DNA of 64,000 nt from a virus. The stretch's first letter is position 1. Each line of letters starts with the position of its first letter. Both the position numbers and the translations under genes were made by a program. The notes beneath the pieces are model-generated. The model saw nothing but the letters and a program-made list of their open reading frames with translations. It was not told where the DNA came from and did not search any database. The stretch is from IMG/VR virus record IMGVR_UViG_3300031656_000001, one strand, 5' to 3'. Shown here piece by piece: positions 14,928-34,461 of this stretch.

Positions 14928-15347
14928 CTAATTTATACTCATTAATTCTTGTGCAGCGTTCTTAACTTCATTGTTATCTGCTTTTTCTTCGCTACTTGCA
15001 AACTTCTTATTGAATTGTCCCATTACCATTCCAATATTTTTAGCACCACCATCAATTAAAATCTGTACTTCTTCTCTAATCTTTTCAATTGACATTGTTT
15101 TTGGCATATATGGTAGTAACCATTCTATTTCAATAATAGCGTCTTTGTTTCCAGCGTCTAAAACTTCTTTCAAACTCTTATTCATTTTAACAACGACTTT
15201 AGTAACATTAACATCTGATGCTTCTATGCCACGACCTTCGTTATTTTTAATCTCGCTCTTAAGTAATCCTAAGAATGTTTTTTTGATTGTATTTCTTTCC
15301 TTCATCGCTGTGATAAAGTCTGTGTTTATTTGTTCTGATTTGTTCAT
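14928..15347 (-). CDS. GatB/YqeY-domain protein
   Basis: ITAMKER...LLKSEIKN...LPYMPK...NIGMVMG...KAD pattern. Confidence 0.8.
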   Translation of the reverse strand: MNKSEQINTDFITAMKERNTIKKTFLGLLKSEIKNNEGRGIEASDVNVTKVVVKMNKSLKEVLDAGNKDAIIEIEWLLPYMPKTMSIEKIREEVQILIDGGAKNIGMVMGQFNKKFASSEEKADNNEVKNAAQELMSIN

Positions 15348-15349
15348 AA

Positions 15350-16399
15350 TTATACGTTTTGTAATTCAGCAAAAAACATGTTCTTCGCTTTCACTGAAAT
15401 ATATTTGTTAGTATCCTTTGGTGTTAATCCGTTTTCTGTCATAACATCAATTTCTTCATTCATGATATCGTTAATCAACCATCTTAAAAGATCTCCGGTT
15501 TTCTTCACATCATATTCAACTGGACTATTAAACACTTCACCTAAAGCTTGGTTGAATCTGTTTCTGGTCATTGCATATTCAACGAATTCGTTAACACTAT
15601 CTAATTTCTCTACATCAACCGGAGCTAATGTCTTAACTTTAGATACTGAATGCTTTTCACCTTTTACTTTAAATCTGTGATTAGTTCCATTGTAATTAGT
15701 TTCCCATACAACGCCTTCACCAATTCCTGATTTACCGAAATGTTTAGCGACAGGACATTCTTCTTCAATAGCTAATGTCAATTCACTCAACTTATTTGAG
15801 ATTCTTGATGGATCATTAAAATCAATTTCAATTTCCCATGTTGGAAAATCTGTCATATTATAAACCTTCAATTCAGGTGCGTGAATATTACTATAATCAT
15901 ACCATTGAGATACAAAATCTTCGTCATCTGGATTTGATACTTTAATACCAAAGATAAAGAATGATTTTTCAATTTCAGAAATACCAACACCTTTTTGAAT
16001 TCCCTTTCCTGCCCATTCACCAAAGATTGAAATACAAAACTTGGTTGTATCAATATTGTGGATGTATGCAAAGTCTTTGAATTCAGTTTCCCAATAATCC
16101 ATGTTGGATTTAACAAAGAATGAGAATCCCATGTGAGAATCTGCATTAGTATCTAAATCAAATGAGTTGTTTCTTGATTGTGTCCATACACCAAACTTGT
16201 CATTATAACTAATTCCTGCATTTGTTCCATGTAACTTTACTGTACCTTTGAATTTAATCGTAGGTTTTGGTTTAAGTTGATCATAAATAGCATCTCCATT
16301 TTCATCAAGACCTACGTATGAATAACTTCTATTGATTGCACTTACTACATTTCTGTATTGCTCAATCTTAGGGAACTTTAAACATTTGATTTTATCCAT
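15350..16399 (-). CDS. RNA ligase, Rnl2 family
   Basis: motif I KLHGTN, FGEWAG, FFIFGI, GEGVV, FKVK. Confidence 0.85.
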   Translation of the reverse strand: MDKIKCLKFPKIEQYRNVVSAINRSYSYVGLDENGDAIYDQLKPKPTIKFKGTVKLHGTNAGISYNDKFGVWTQSRNNSFDLDTNADSHMGFSFFVKSNMDYWETEFKDFAYIHNIDTTKFCISIFGEWAGKGIQKGVGISEIEKSFFIFGIKVSNPDDEDFVSQWYDYSNIHAPELKVYNMTDFPTWEIEIDFNDPSRISNKLSELTLAIEEECPVAKHFGKSGIGEGVVWETNYNGTNHRFKVKGEKHSVSKVKTLAPVDVEKLDSVNEFVEYAMTRNRFNQALGEVFNSPVEYDVKKTGDLLRWLINDIMNEEIDVMTENGLTPKDTNKYISVKAKNMFFAELQNV

Positions 16400-19658: not shown

Positions 19659-19757
19659 CTTGCGTAGTTTTGTATATGTAAATATAACTAAAATATATGA
19701 CATAAAAAAATCCTGGCTAAAAAGTTATTAACAATTTCACCAGGATTCTAATGTTTA

Positions 19758-19997
19758 ACAGGAACGTTGTTAGTATTCATTCGGCTCTGCAGCTATATCT
19801 CTTTTATTGTCTTAGCTTCAATAACTATTGGCCTACTGTACTTCAGCGTTATTTCTTCACCTTAATGAGAAGTTGACATTGTCAGATTTTTTTATACTGG
19901 TTAGACGTTCCATTTGCCGTGTCTGTAATTAGCCGAAGCTTTCTTAGTGGACATTATTGGCTTTCTGTGTATAGTTATGGTTTGCTGAACCGTTCCT
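19758..19997 (-). ncRNA. Y-RNA-like ncRNA A (CAGCAA family, about 240 nt)
   Basis: AGGAACG-GTT-CAGCAA...CGTTCCT-GT terminal stem with a multi-hairpin interior. Confidence 0.75.
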
Positions 19998-20000
19998 TTG

Positions 20001-20053
20001 CAGGTTTCATTTTTGGCTATTTATAATTGCTTGTAAGTTGCTGTAAGAAACCT
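20001..20053 (-). ncRNA. Y-RNA-like ncRNA B (CAGCAA family, about 53 nt)
   Basis: AGGTTTC-TTA-CAGCAA...GAAACCT-G; late motif at 20065-20073 just upstream. Confidence 0.75.
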
Positions 20054-20349
20054 TATTTCTTTTATTATATATCTTGTTTTATTGTGCGTACTCTGAGACA
20101 TTCTCTAATGTGAACCATTTCTTAGGTCGACCATCTGGTGATTTAAACTCTGTATATTCAGATTCAGAATATGCATACGCTGCCGCTGCAAAAAATCCAT
20201 TATCTACAACACATATCATATTGTCCATAAATTTAGAATCTGTTACTTGGGTTGCTCCCATTTCTAGTAGCTTTTCACATTTTGAATCGAATGAACTTCC
20301 TAGTTCAACTCCGTTAATTTGATTTACGTATTTTCCCATGTTTTTTGTT

Positions 20350-21789
20350 TTAAATAGTTATATCAGAATATCTTTCATTCATAATTGTCTTGTCCATTAT
20401 TGATAATGGTGTAAAATCATCTCCACCTAAAAGTGACTTTAAGATTGCTGGAGAGAAACCACTTACTAATGCAGTTCCCATTTTATCAAAGGCAACTGGT
20501 ACATCACCGTGTCTAGAATTAAGGTTCCAGTAAATAATCTTAGGAATCTTATAACCTACATCACTGTATAATTTTTCAATCATTTGCTGTGCGGTTGGGT
20601 TCCATTCGTTAGTATTTCCTCTGCTTCCCCATGATCTAGTACTTGTTGCTTCATCAAATTGCATATCTGATAATATCATTATTTTATCTGGCATTTGATC
20701 TGCTTTAACTTCATGTTTCACTGCTTGATCTAATACTTTCATGAATGCGGCTTCTATATTGGTATTCATTCCCCAATCAGATCTATTCATTTGTTGAAAT
20801 CTATCGTATAAATCTCCCTTTAAATATTGTAATTCAGGTGAACCGCTAAATGTTAAGAAAGAATCTTGGAATGGTCCTTCATTTCTCTCAGAAATATAAA
20901 GTCCTAATGAGATTGCAACATCCATACAAGTTACATTTGCATTGTTTCCTGCTGCGCATGACATTGATCCTGAAGTATCTACCATCGGTAAAATCATTTC
21001 AGTTGCTCCTTCTAAGAAATTAGGTAGAGCTTTCCATTGTGCGCTTGCTACATCTTTATCACCTCTATGTAAAGACTTAGTGATGTCATAAGGATAAACT
21101 GCACCTGCATTAATTGTTGCTTCGCCTTTCTTAAGAGCATTCACATAGTTTTCATATCCAATTGGTGCATTCTTCCAAAAAGCTTTTTGATATCTAGCAC
21201 TTGCCACAGATGGCAACTTAGAGAATTCAATAGCTTCCCATTCTTTAGCACACATTAATGTTTCAACAACTTGTGTTAATCCAACAATAGTTTTACGGTA
21301 TTGCTTTGGTGTCATGCCCATAAAGTTTCTAAGCTTTGCAGCTGTTGCACCTTTACGTGGCATCCATTTAGCACATAAACCATTCTTATCTTCTATTGCT
21401 TCTGCTATTAATATAAATGCTTTAGTTTCTAATTTAGTTCCTTCAAATACTAACAAGTCATCCCATCTTCCAAATTCTGAAATAAGGTTTAAGTTTCCTT
21501 CAATTGCTGCAGTATGATTTTCTGCTAAATAAAGTACAATATCTTTAAAGATCTGTCTTTCACCAGCACCACCTCTAACATCTCTTGCCCAAAACAATAT
21601 CTTCATTGCTCTTAATGGATCAGTATTAAACGCCAAAGAAAATTGACTAATAAGTCTAGCTTTATCTTGGCCTCTCATTGCTCCGATATTAAAGAATAAA
21701 TCAACAACTGTATTTAAAGAAGTTGAGTTTGTTGCCATACCATTTTCTGTTACGACATCATCTTGACGAATTGCATCTACTAATTTCAT
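20350..21789 (-). CDS. DUF2828-family Ro60/TROVE-like helical + vWA protein
   Basis: TENG, RDVRGGAGER, EFGRWDDL and AKWMPR in the helical domain; vWA MIDAS DTSGSM, SDMQFD, YWNL, VSGFS. Confidence 0.85.
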   Translation of the reverse strand: MKLVDAIRQDDVVTENGMATNSTSLNTVVDLFFNIGAMRGQDKARLISQFSLAFNTDPLRAMKILFWARDVRGGAGERQIFKDIVLYLAENHTAAIEGNLNLISEFGRWDDLLVFEGTKLETKAFILIAEAIEDKNGLCAKWMPRKGATAAKLRNFMGMTPKQYRKTIVGLTQVVETLMCAKEWEAIEFSKLPSVASARYQKAFWKNAPIGYENYVNALKKGEATINAGAVYPYDITKSLHRGDKDVASAQWKALPNFLEGATEMILPMVDTSGSMSCAAGNNANVTCMDVAISLGLYISERNEGPFQDSFLTFSGSPELQYLKGDLYDRFQQMNRSDWGMNTNIEAAFMKVLDQAVKHEVKADQMPDKIMILSDMQFDEATSTRSWGSRGNTNEWNPTAQQMIEKLYSDVGYKIPKIIYWNLNSRHGDVPVAFDKMGTALVSGFSPAILKSLLGGDDFTPLSIMDKTIMNERYSDITI

Positions 21790-33377: not shown

Positions 33378-34373
33378 TTATAATCTTTTATATTCTGGTT
33401 TAATAAGTCTCCAAATGGTATCTGAATAATCTTTGTTATCCAACATTTTAAATAATACAGCTGAATACTTATTCCATTGTACCGATTCTGCAAATTCCTT
33501 TCTATTAAGATTTTTGTTAATATTGAATCTTGCAATTGTTAGTTCTTCTATCAAACGGTATTCGGATTTTAGTTCGTTAATATACACATCAACCCCCTTA
33601 AAGAACTCATCCGGCACATCTTTCAACATTTCGTAAATATCATCACCCTTACTTAAACATTCCCATACCGATTTTGTAGAGATTTCAGTCATTATTTTAT
33701 GTAACCTAAGATAATCCTCAAATTTGATTTTACATCTATCGCCATTTCCAAACTTAACCACAAATCCTTCTTTATTTTCCCAGTTCAATGTTTTTAAATG
33801 TTCATAGTTTTTAATAGTATGATATTTTTTAACGACATCATATCCATTTTCTCTGAAAGTATCTAATGAATACTCTTCACCAGAAATAGTTCCGATTCTA
33901 CCTAATAGAACCAATCTATCTTCACCAATATAATCTACTACGATTCTATTTGCAGGATAAATGATTTCAAACATATAAGTTGAACCTTTATCAAAATGAG
34001 ATTCTTGAAACTTCTCTTTAAACATTTCAGCACCTTTAATTGCTTGATCAGAAGCGAATGATCCTCTAGATGCAAATACCCATTGTCCATCATAATAGAA
34101 TGCAATACCTAAAGATCCATCCATCTTTTCATAGACATCAAATTCTTTAGTTGGTGTATGTTGTGCTTCTTCAATATTAAAAAACTTTTGAAATGGTCTA
34201 GCAACTATGTTACCTTCATTATCTGTGACCAATCCTCTGCAATGTAAAGTGATACTATCCCATTTTTTCTCAAACTGAGTGGCTTGAGAATAATTCCAAA
34301 TAGTTAATGGAAGTGTTGGATGGGTTTGTTTGATTAACCAACCTTGTTCGTAATATTCTTCTAATAGTACCAT
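33378..34373 (-). CDS. RNA ligase, T4 Rnl1/RnlA family
   Basis: CRGLV, RPFQKFFN, EKMDGSLG, SRGSF, FEII, EGFVV, KIKFEDY; start moved to MVLLEE. Confidence 0.9.
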   Translation of the reverse strand: MVLLEEYYEQGWLIKQTHPTLPLTIWNYSQATQFEKKWDSITLHCRGLVTDNEGNIVARPFQKFFNIEEAQHTPTKEFDVYEKMDGSLGIAFYYDGQWVFASRGSFASDQAIKGAEMFKEKFQESHFDKGSTYMFEIIYPANRIVVDYIGEDRLVLLGRIGTISGEEYSLDTFRENGYDVVKKYHTIKNYEHLKTLNWENKEGFVVKFGNGDRCKIKFEDYLRLHKIMTEISTKSVWECLSKGDDIYEMLKDVPDEFFKGVDVYINELKSEYRLIEELTIARFNINKNLNRKEFAESVQWNKYSAVLFKMLDNKDYSDTIWRLIKPEYKRL

Positions 34374-34461
34374 ATGTATTTTTAAGTATAATGCTAATAT
34401 AAACATTTATATTGACATAAAAAAACTTTTGAGTACTTATTTTCAAAAAACTTTTATAATA

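What the first reader, a model, noticed from the sequence alone, without database searches (positions are those of the whole stretch)
19758..19997. Large structured cargo in Y-like RNA A
Seen: inside the terminal stem are ATAACTAT/ATAGTTAT long-range pairing and an AGC-TTCG-GCT tetraloop hairpin. That hairpin can alternatively pair with downstream GAAGCT and AGCCGAA, suggesting a switch or pseudoknot. AGAC/GTCT, TGAC/GTCA and CTTC/GAAG arms are also present. No long ORF spans it, and a hairpin plus T-run follows at 19705-19747. Inference: an unknown effector-binding or catalytic domain.
Basis: partly seen in the sequence, partly recalled or inferred. Interest (0 to 1): 0.7.

Follow-up and report, generated by a model that had tools for sequence, protein, structure and literature searches.

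The report
Triple-pseudoknot partner RNA of Ro60-like protein
This 238-base phage RNA gene sits behind the gene for a ring-shaped, Ro60-like RNA-binding protein and folds into three knots in a row, a shape kept by evolution in dozens of related phages and not described for any Ro60 partner RNA in Rfam or the papers I searched; it probably acts as a bait or tether for a host RNA-handling machine.

Summary
Folded alone it is unremarkable (z = -0.17). In 70 distinct homologs (166-274 nt) it resolves into a variable 5' arm and three H-type pseudoknots in a row: PK-a, PK-b (with an optional GAA/AGUA arm) and a 2-bp PK-c. Compensatory changes support these (58 same-branch double changes, 6.6 expected). 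The UUCG hairpin is only a swappable cap. The proposed switch, ATAACTAT/ATAGTTAT and TGAC/GTCA are not conserved; AGAC/GTCT has better-supported rival partners; CTTC/GAAG is undecided. Of 43 informative copies found by RNA pattern alone, 41 lie downstream of a DUF2828 gene, whose model matches Ro60 over its full length. One to three pseudoknots also recur under the same handle in unrelated lineages. The RNA works like a Y RNA but fails the YrlA, type III antitoxin and tmRNA membership tests. Best guess: a rigid tether or bait for a host S1/KH-domain RNase (0.45). Main rival: a mimic of tmRNA parts that docks on the 30S subunit (0.22). There are no expression or binding data. The scan saw this handle family before on other DNA, and once tandem pseudoknots beside a Ro60.

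The parts
19759..19996 (-). RNA A, 238-nt Y-like non-coding RNA (ends inferred from the family)
   Evidence: 70 distinct homologs of 166-274 nt, nearest about 80% identical; no Rfam match
19982..19996 (-). Handle, 5' half: 6-7-bp stem strand plus CAGCAA; presumed DUF2828 binding site
   Evidence: Stem pairs with 19761-19766; positions 4 and 5 change together on 2 and 6 branches; CAGCAA in 66 of 70
19759..19766 (-). Handle, 3' half: closing strand plus the last two bases (UG here)
19962..19981 (-). Unpaired A/C-rich linker; carries YUAY in 64 of 70 copies (23 expected). An AUG lies at nt 27-39 in 64 of 69 homologs, but not in this copy
19916..19961 (-). Arm A: variable branched hairpin, here capped by the UUCG hairpin 19931-19940; cap is UUCG, UUAG or GNRA in other copies
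   Evidence: local fold; caps; alignments
19881..19912 (-). PK-a, H-type pseudoknot: stem 19910-19912 with 19898-19900; loop 19904-19906 pairs with 19881-19883 after an A-run. Weak in this copy (3+3 bp, p = 0.12), strong as a family
   Evidence: alignment-free test: 24 of 25 representative regions hold such a knot, 14 at p<0.1, Fisher p = 5e-7 (members are related)
19798..19878 (-). PK-b, H-type pseudoknot: stem 1 19875-19878 with 19808-19811; stem 2 19867-19870 with 19798-19801
   Evidence: stem 1 100% paired with 3 of 4 pairs changing on both sides on a plain MAFFT alignment; stem 2 280/280 cells paired in six sequence forms and predicted unaided by RNAalifold with 7 double changes
19812..19866 (-). 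Optional 55-65-nt side arm inserted in PK-b (1-3 nt in seven copies); two short covarying stems around a purine-rich internal loop
   Evidence: P4 and P5 paired 27/27, with 5, 3 and 2 same-branch double changes; insert lengths
19831..19847 (-). Tip hairpin with GAA facing AGUA (bulged-G / loop-E type motif, inferred); the same tip caps helix H5 of 8 of 30 Flavobacteriales tmRNAs
   Evidence: 56 of 63 inserts; 8/30 tmRNAs against 0.02 expected; stem covariation
19772..19795 (-). PK-c: 3-5-bp hairpin with GC(A/C)G loop whose last two bases (19787-19788) pair with 19772-19773
   Evidence: top pair of a tree-corrected all-against-all scan, E = 0.02, 32/32 canonical; 140/140 cells; stem changes together on 5, 5 and 7 branches
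19705..19747 (-). Intrinsic-terminator-like hairpin plus U-run
   Evidence: z = -4.4, 0/200 shuffles; a crude test finds one after 38 of 67 homologs
20001..20052 (-). RNA B, short sibling with the same handle, 4 nt upstream; probably co-transcribed
   Evidence: present 2-9 nt upstream in 55 of 70 homologs; Rfam Dicty_Class_I_RNA 28.1 bits, E = 0.0037, below gathering 41.5
20350..21789 (-). DUF2828/DUF7788 gene (479 aa), Ro60-like ring (helical repeats plus vWA); presumed protein partner
   Evidence: Pfam; all 13 Foldseek hits with E<=0.001 are Ro60/TROVE, full length, best 9kop E = 3e-9, TM 0.58

Best explanation
RNA A is a long partner RNA of the phage's Ro60-like DUF2828 protein. It is transcribed with the short RNA B up to the terminator and cut out as a stable RNA (inferred). 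The end-to-end stem with CAGCAA is the protein's docking site (inferred from the Ro60 fold, co-occurrence and analogy to Y RNAs). The cargo folds into three H-type pseudoknots joined by 0-4-nt linkers, with two exchangeable side arms (shown by covariation). Such short linkers suggest one stiff stacked stalk with A-rich strands along it (inferred). It works by shape, not as a switch, enzyme or mRNA. It is the effector-binding module that ties the ring to a host RNA-handling machine, most likely an S1/KH-domain exoribonuclease such as PNPase, as a bait that the enzyme binds but cannot easily unwind, so that phage RNA is spared or decay is redirected (inferred from precedent only).
For: Structure. 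G-U-keeping changes, A-rich loop 3 strands and the terminator all point to the minus strand. Linkage: 41 of 43 informative metagenome copies, found by RNA pattern alone, have DUF2828 upstream on the same strand, 40 of them within 625 nt of the 3' pattern. Fold. Modularity: the same handle carries an A-rich loop (B, C), a permuted tRNA-like domain (D, L377) or one to three pseudoknots of unrelated sequence in other lineages, so shape is kept while sequence is not. Downstream genes fall into 30 families, so it is not cis-acting. Precedent: Y RNAs are modular tethers and Yrn1 contacts the KH/S1 domains of PNPase (10.1101/312249); phage phiLo Ro60 with Yrl RNAs binds and attenuates host PNPase (PMC12135203).
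Against: No transcript, binding or partner data. The canonical Ro60 site GNCGAA is absent (0/70), and DUF2828 is only 11-18% identical to solved Ro60s. Fine features such as the 2-bp PK-c and the GAA/AGUA tip look more specific than a sequence-tolerant KH/S1 surface needs. Two copies lack DUF2828 within 1.1 and 2.9 kb upstream. The copy in this window folds weakly and has the thinnest PK-a.
Confidence: 0.45

Rival explanations
1. The cargo imitates the non-tRNA part of host tmRNA (open stretch, hairpin, run of pseudoknots, H5-type tip) and docks the Ro60-like ring on the 30S subunit near the mRNA entrance, or soaks up factors that recognise tmRNA (bS1, uS3, RNase R, toxins).
For: Order of parts: unpaired A/C-rich stretch with AUG in 64 of 69 copies, hairpin, three pseudoknots. 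In tmRNA the MLD, H5 and PK ring wrap the 30S beak, and H5 and PK2 touch uS3, uS4 and uS5 (PMC8363625). The GAA/AGUA tip caps H5 in 8 of 30 Flavobacteriales tmRNAs (0.02 expected) and 56 of 63 inserts. Six related loci carry a tmRNA gene nearby, one a few bases upstream of the RNA. Sibling RNA D appears to mimic another translation RNA.
Against: No overall homology: tmRNA HMM 0 of 70 hits at 3 bits, shared k-mers within the shuffled range, and the RNA-A covariance model does not hit tmRNAs. The H5-like tip lies inside PK-b, not before the knots, and is deletable. There is no tRNA-like domain or CCA end. The AUG is missing at that place in this copy; its context scores between real starts and internal ATGs (1.6 vs 4.0 and -4.3), and CUA is as conserved as AUG. 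The tip may be a common stable cap.
Confidence: 0.22
2. The knots are pseudo-antitoxins that neutralise host type III toxins (ToxN, AbiQ, CptN, TenpN), with the Ro60-like ring protecting the RNA ends.
For: Type III antitoxins are small H-type pseudoknots in tandem, and phage TE escapes ToxIN with a pseudo-ToxI RNA (PMC5086642; PMC3475682). PK-a and insert-less PK-b are of similar size.
Against: The three knots are not repeats of each other. Linkers are 0-4 nt, so cutting would not leave the single-stranded tails that bind the toxin. No Rfam match. Antitoxins are toxin-specific in sequence, while these knots change sequence freely.
Confidence: 0.1
3. The cargo is a new ribozyme or ligand-binding fold.
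For: A compact pseudoknot-rich core, and a conserved 3' module (PK-c and its tail) kept even in the 117-nt copy L042.
Against: No Rfam ribozyme or riboswitch match. Few invariant unpaired bases in the cargo. The knots are sequential, not nested around a pocket. Other lineages use unrelated sequences under the same handle.
Confidence: 0.05
4. The RNA is a tiny mRNA whose AUG loads ribosomes onto a short arbitrary ORF, the knots serving as roadblock or stabiliser.
For: AUG at a near-fixed distance from the handle in 14 of 18 divergent representatives, where about 0.15 each is expected.
Against: ORFs run 2-44 codons with no shared frame or peptide. Five copies, this one included, lack the AUG there. 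YUAY, which YrlA RNAs also conserve (PMC4201824), explains the motif as well.
Confidence: 0.05
5. A conformational switch in which the UUCG hairpin swaps partners.
For: The 7-bp alternative pairing is perfect here and in six other copies.
Against: Absent in 63 of 70 copies; the cap is often GNRA or UUAG. It would break PK-c, the best-supported knot. Downstream genes are unrelated and the terminator does not overlap the RNA.
Confidence: 0.03

Closest known systems
Ro60 (Rsr) with bacterial and phage Y RNAs: Yrn1, YrlA/YrlB (PMC4201824; 10.1101/312249) and Thermus phage phiLo Yrl1/Yrl2 (PMC12135203)
   Same: Encoded next to a Ro60-fold gene on the same strand, in tandem with a sibling; 5' and 3' ends paired; protein handle plus exchangeable effector module; YUAY after the handle.
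   Different: Protein is DUF2828, not Pfam TROVE. Handle is a 6-7-bp stem plus CAGCAA, without GNCGAA. Cargo is three pseudoknots, not a tRNA-like or simple stem-loop domain. About twice as long.
Dictyostelium Class I RNAs (Rfam RF01414; PMC7919456)
   Same: AAG start, short end-to-end stem, CAGCAA-ending motif, CUGU end, variable interior. Sibling B scores E = 0.0037.
   Different: Class I RNAs are 42-65 nt, eukaryotic, with a DUSE promoter. RNA A is 238 nt and is not matched by the model.
tmRNA H5 and PK2-PK4 (Rfam RF00023; PMC8363625)
   Same: Open stretch, hairpin, then consecutive pseudoknots; same GAA/AGUA hairpin tip as H5 in 8 of 30 Flavobacteriales tmRNAs.
   Different: No tRNA-like domain, no conserved tag, no detectable sequence homology; the tip sits inside the second knot.
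Type III antitoxins ToxI, antiQ, CptI and phage pseudo-ToxI (PMC5086642, PMC3475682)
   Same: Small H-type pseudoknots in tandem with A-rich loops.
   Different: Not repeats, no tails between units, no toxin gene beside it, closed by a terminal stem.
Tobamovirus upstream pseudoknot domain (PMC4683447)
   Same: Three consecutive pseudoknots whose structure, not sequence, matters and which bind a host translation factor (eEF1A).
   Different: Part of a plant virus 3' UTR; an analogy of shape only.

Membership tests
Y RNA (YrlA/YrlB type) | Encoded near a Ro60 ortholog on the same strand | tested here: met
   DUF2828 model matches only Ro60/TROVE at E<=0.001; 41 of 43 informative copies linked. 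The protein is a remote Ro60-fold relative, not Pfam TROVE.
Y RNA (YrlA/YrlB type) | Stem formed by the 5' and 3' ends | tested here: met
   shorter than in known Y RNAs
Y RNA (YrlA/YrlB type) | GNCGAAN0-1G Ro60-binding motif near the 5' end | tested here: not met
   0 of 70; motif defined in PMC4201824
Y RNA (YrlA type) | tRNA-like effector module with D and T arms | tested here: not met
   no Rfam or ARAGORN call on RNA A; cargo is pseudoknots
Y RNA (YrlA/YrlB type) | Bound by the Ro60 protein in cells | not testable with these tools
   needs immunoprecipitation or gel shift
Dictyostelium Class I RNA | AAG start, about 6-bp end stem, adjacent motif ending CAA, CUGU end | tested here: met
   sequence at 19758-19998 against PMC7919456; the first bases of the 11-nt motif differ
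Dictyostelium Class I RNA | Length 42-65 nt and Rfam RF01414 gathering score | tested here: not met
   238 nt and no hit for A; B 28.1 < 41.5 bits
Type III antitoxin | H-type pseudoknot units | tested here: met
Type III antitoxin | Near-identical 34-36-nt or longer repeats with single-stranded tails, cut into monomers | tested here: not met
   three unlike knots, linkers 0-4 nt; definition in PMC5086642
Type III antitoxin | Cognate toxin gene directly downstream | tested here: not met
   downstream ORF has no Pfam family and differs among homologs, 30 families
tmRNA | tRNA-like domain with CCA end | tested here: not met
   ARAGORN and Rfam negative
tmRNA | Conserved tag reading frame | tested here: not met
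   ORFs of 2-44 codons, no shared peptide
tmRNA | Hairpin followed by consecutive pseudoknots | tested here: met
   layout; shape only, homology tests negative
Riboswitch / cis-regulatory leader | Constant class of downstream gene and an expression platform overlapping the domain | tested here: not met
   30 downstream families; terminator lies outside the closed RNA
Known self-cleaving ribozymes | Match to a ribozyme covariance model | tested here: not met
   no hit at E<=10 in the window copy or L007

The most novel reading that the evidence does not exclude
The phage grafts a look-alike of tmRNA's ribosome-gripping parts (H5-type tip and pseudoknot run, without the tRNA half) onto a Ro60-like ring, to occupy or re-purpose host 30S subunits or the tmRNA quality-control factors during infection, as one of a set of interchangeable mimics of host stable RNAs carried on one handle.
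Probability: 0.2. Interest if true: 0.85.

Novelty: new variant of a known kind. Interest (0 to 1): 0.62.

Why it matters
Known Y RNA effector modules are tRNA-like or simple stem-loops, and the partner of most is unknown. A covariation-backed triple-pseudoknot module with natural deletion variants (117-274 nt), recurring in unrelated sequence in other phage lineages, gives a second defined cargo class on one handle. That makes the open question 'what do Ro60 partner RNAs tether?' testable by swapping cargos in a single pull-down. It also adds a compact natural RNA fold for structure work and may point to a phage counter-defence aimed at RNA decay or ribosome rescue.

Tried and rejected
Single-strand folding: uninformative. 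Exact 15-mer scan of viral contigs: 100 hits, taken as mostly chance and not analysed. Annotated phages: no real match. Rfam on two copies: nothing for the cargo. A recalled likeness of the group-2 insert to 5S rRNA loop E gave no Rfam 5S hit. HDV-, twister- and pistol-type topologies were considered from memory and do not fit the sequential order of the knots. An 11-nt tetraloop-receptor reading of the CUAUG motif was dropped because the partner word varies. Conserved peptide: rejected. Sequence homology to tmRNA: rejected; the arm-A GUGGA/UGAA loop occurs in 17 of 70 RNAs but 1 of 37 tmRNAs. No genome is held for the window. Two reviews (PMC5062991, PMC10870794) were not held, so an earlier description there cannot be excluded. 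No protein-complex job was run: the open question is RNA-protein. Caveat: the anchors are sequence patterns written after I had seen the helices, so they lean toward the model. Searches use plain MAFFT alignments; in 46 and 50 no structure was given. Only one pair passes the strict all-pairs test (effective n about 21).

Full report
Setting. The window is part of a large T4-like myovirus genome: major head, terminase, sheath, clamp loader and an Rnl1-type RNA ligase, a second RNA ligase and a DNA ligase, and 17 tRNA calls. The finding lies on the minus strand between an 86-codon ORF and a 230-codon ORF, about 350 nt behind a 479-aa DUF2828/DUF7788 gene. A scan for a stem plus CAGCAA found four such elements in the window: A (19759-19996), B (20001-20052), C (27492-27546) and D (27832-27974). 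The host is probably a member of Bacteroidota; this is an inference from promoter style and from a close relative in a Saprospirales bin.

Check of the observation. There is no long ORF, and the hairpin with U-run behind the RNA is significant (z = -4.4). Taken alone, the arms are not above chance: 57 helices of 4 bp or more against 54 in shuffles, and an 8-bp helix arises in 15% of shuffles. The RNA folds no better than shuffles, and little besides the terminal stem survives in the centroid. Rfam has no match for A; B gives a sub-threshold hit to Dictyostelium Class I RNA.

Homologs. Loci of related DUF2828 genes and RNA-pattern scans of viral and metagenome contigs gave 70 distinct full-length homologs of 166-274 nt, the nearest about 80% identical, plus a 117-nt minimal form (L042). 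In the metagenome scan, which used only the RNA's 3' pattern, 52 of 55 hits are real elements. Of the 43 with enough upstream DNA, 41 have a DUF2828 gene upstream on the same strand. A short B-type sibling lies 2-9 nt upstream in 55 of 70, and the downstream genes fall into 30 unrelated families. So the RNA travels with DUF2828 and B, not with the gene it precedes.

What the cargo is. On a plain MAFFT alignment, RNAalifold found the terminal stem, a long-range pairing of the pyrimidine tract with the purines after an A-run (7 double changes), and a 3' hairpin. A tree-corrected scan of all column pairs gave one significant pair: the third base of the GC(A/C)G loop with a base 16 nt downstream, C-G in 19 and A-U in 13 of 32 sequences (E = 0.02). 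That is a pseudoknot (PK-c). Counting my model on a plain alignment of the 3' half gave 97% paired cells and 8 pairs with changes on both sides (3.4 expected, 0/500 shuffles), while slid controls gave 24-38%. With motif anchors over all 70, PK-b stem 1 is paired in 276/280 cells, stem 2 in 280/280, the PK-c stem in 304/316 and its loop pairs in 140/140. On a tree, both partners change on the same branch 58 times, against 6.6 expected and at most 17 in 5000 simulations; these anchors lean toward the model. PK-a varies too much to align. An alignment-free search found an H-type knot ending within 4 nt of PK-b in 24 of 25 representative regions, 14 at p<0.1, Fisher p = 5e-7. The members are related, a few best solutions are off the family register, and this window's own PK-a is weak (p = 0.12). 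PK-b carries either 1-3 nt or a 55-65-nt side arm between its stems. The arm has two covarying stems and a tip where GAA faces AGUA, which I read as a bulged-G motif from general knowledge. The cargo is therefore: open linker, variable arm A, then PK-a, PK-b and PK-c joined by 0-4 nt.

The UUCG hairpin is real but is only the cap of arm A; other copies use UUAG or GNRA loops. Its 7-bp alternative pairing is complete in 7 of 70 copies and would break PK-c. The ATAACTAT pairing exists only here; its 3' strand belongs to the side arm. TGAC/GTCA is 57% paired; its strands belong to PK-a and PK-b. AGAC/GTCT was not counted directly; its strands are taken by arm A and PK-a. CTTC/GAAG is fully paired in the nearest subgroup with one double change. 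It shares two bases with PK-b stem 2 and has no local partner in insert-less copies, so it is left open as a possible alternative or tertiary contact.

Generality. Under the same handle, other phage lineages carry one to three H-type knots of unrelated sequence. Five of nine such non-tRNA phage cargos beat shuffles at p<0.05, and in one lineage the loop-tail stem changes on both sides at 3 of 6 pairs. Other copies carry A-rich loops or permuted tRNA-like domains. Pseudoknot stalks are thus a recurring cargo class kept by shape.

The protein. The AlphaFold model of DUF2828 (pLDDT 76) matches only Ro60/TROVE structures at E<=0.001, over about 510 columns; the best is phage phiLo Ro60 (E = 3e-9, TM 0.58). 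Y RNAs consist of an end-to-end stem that binds Ro60 and a second module that binds an effector; Yrn1 contacts the KH/S1 domains of PNPase (10.1101/312249). PhiLo Ro60 with its RNAs binds host PNPase and slows it (PMC12135203). Jumbo phages use ROT/TROVE proteins alongside RNA ligases in RNA repair (PMC7824862). The YrlA motif GNCGAA is absent from all 70 RNAs, so this works like a Y RNA but is not a member of the described types.

How it likely works. Shown: the fold, the strand, the linkage to DUF2828 and B, and the Ro60-like protein model. Inferred: expression, processing, binding of the handle, stacking of the knots into a stiff stalk, and the partner. I put 0.45 on a tether or bait for a host S1/KH-domain RNase such as PNPase, on precedent alone. 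The main rival (0.22) is mimicry of tmRNA parts. The order of parts resembles the MLD, H5 and PK ring that wrap the 30S beak (PMC8363625). The side-arm tip equals the H5 tip of 8 of 30 Flavobacteriales tmRNAs (0.02 expected), and several relatives have a tmRNA gene close by. But a tmRNA profile, k-mer counts and a covariance model show no homology, and the tip is deletable. Pseudo-antitoxin (0.10), ribozyme (0.05), mini-mRNA (0.05) and switch (0.03) follow. An AUG sits at nt 27-39 in 64 of 69 homologs with no conserved frame and an intermediate start context. It is absent there in this copy and overlaps a YUAY word that YrlA RNAs also keep. I cannot say which of the two is selected.

Novelty. 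I found neither the handle family nor this cargo in Rfam or in ten literature searches; two relevant reviews were not available. Earlier AI notes of this scan report the handle family in many genomes, and one reports tandem pseudoknots beside a phage Ro60. They are leads, not support; my readings of the Ro60 fold, the Class I likeness and the pseudoknots were formed before I saw those notes. Verdict: a new variant of the Ro60/Y-RNA kind with a new, well-supported effector fold and an untested function; interest 0.62.

Noticed in passing
window 27832-27974 (-): Sibling RNA D carries, by eye, a permuted tRNA-like cargo (T-arm, closed acceptor-like stem, D-arm) as in YrlA; L377 (Lentisphaeria bin) has two similar ones.
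   Followed up: partly
window 27492-27546 (-) and 20001-20052 (-): Short siblings C and B with A-rich loops; B matches the Dictyostelium Class I RNA model at E = 0.0037 with the same start, motif and end. Whether dictyostelids use a DUF2828 protein was not tested.
   Followed up: partly
L341 2338-3076: An RNA A homolog lies a few bases behind a phage tmRNA gene and just before tRNA-Gly at the head of a 22-tRNA cluster, with no DUF2828 within 2.9 kb upstream.
   Followed up: yes
L361, L363, L374, L237: Phage tmRNAs with an unusually long 23-residue tag (starting GENPF, ending ALAA) near RNA A loci; their 3' halves show small tandem pseudoknots by eye.
   Followed up: partly
window 19721-19737 and nine other intergenic sites (4133, 9931, 13520, 14459, 22685, 28940, 30553, 31186, 31812): A 17-nt motif AAATTGTTNNTAACTTT occurs 10 times, all on the minus strand (1.8 expected); probably a phage promoter or operator element. 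One copy forms the loop of the terminator behind RNA A.
   Followed up: partly
window about 27990 and 29455 (-); L001, L042, L045, L051 upstream of B: A boxA-like word (CTTTGA core) precedes RNA D, the tRNA run and some B+A pairs (12 of 70), as expected for stable-RNA operons.
   Followed up: partly
L395-L424: Helix H5 of 8 of 30 Flavobacteriales tmRNAs ends in a GAA/AGUA hairpin tip, a feature I have not seen discussed.
   Followed up: yes
L054, L057, L058, L287, L289, L293, L303, L307: In this lineage the handle reads CGGCAA or CAGCAA and a GA-repeat purine run precedes the first pseudoknot; L063 reads CGGCAC.
   Followed up: partly
window 26327-26402 (-) and 26500-27300 (-): ARAGORN calls a tRNA with a 4-nt anticodon loop reading; the long non-coding stretch upstream, with several hairpins, has no Rfam match.
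   Followed up: no
window 15350-16399 and 33378-34406 (-): Two RNA ligases of different families in one phage, plus a YqeY-like gene at 14928-15347: an RNA-repair theme.
   Followed up: partly
window 20079-20339 (-): An 86-aa ORF of no Pfam family separates DUF2828 from the RNAs; relatives have different small ORFs or none there.
   Followed up: no
L386 4006-4698: Four handle RNAs in a bacterial bin, two with about 200-nt cargos of other folds.
   Followed up: no
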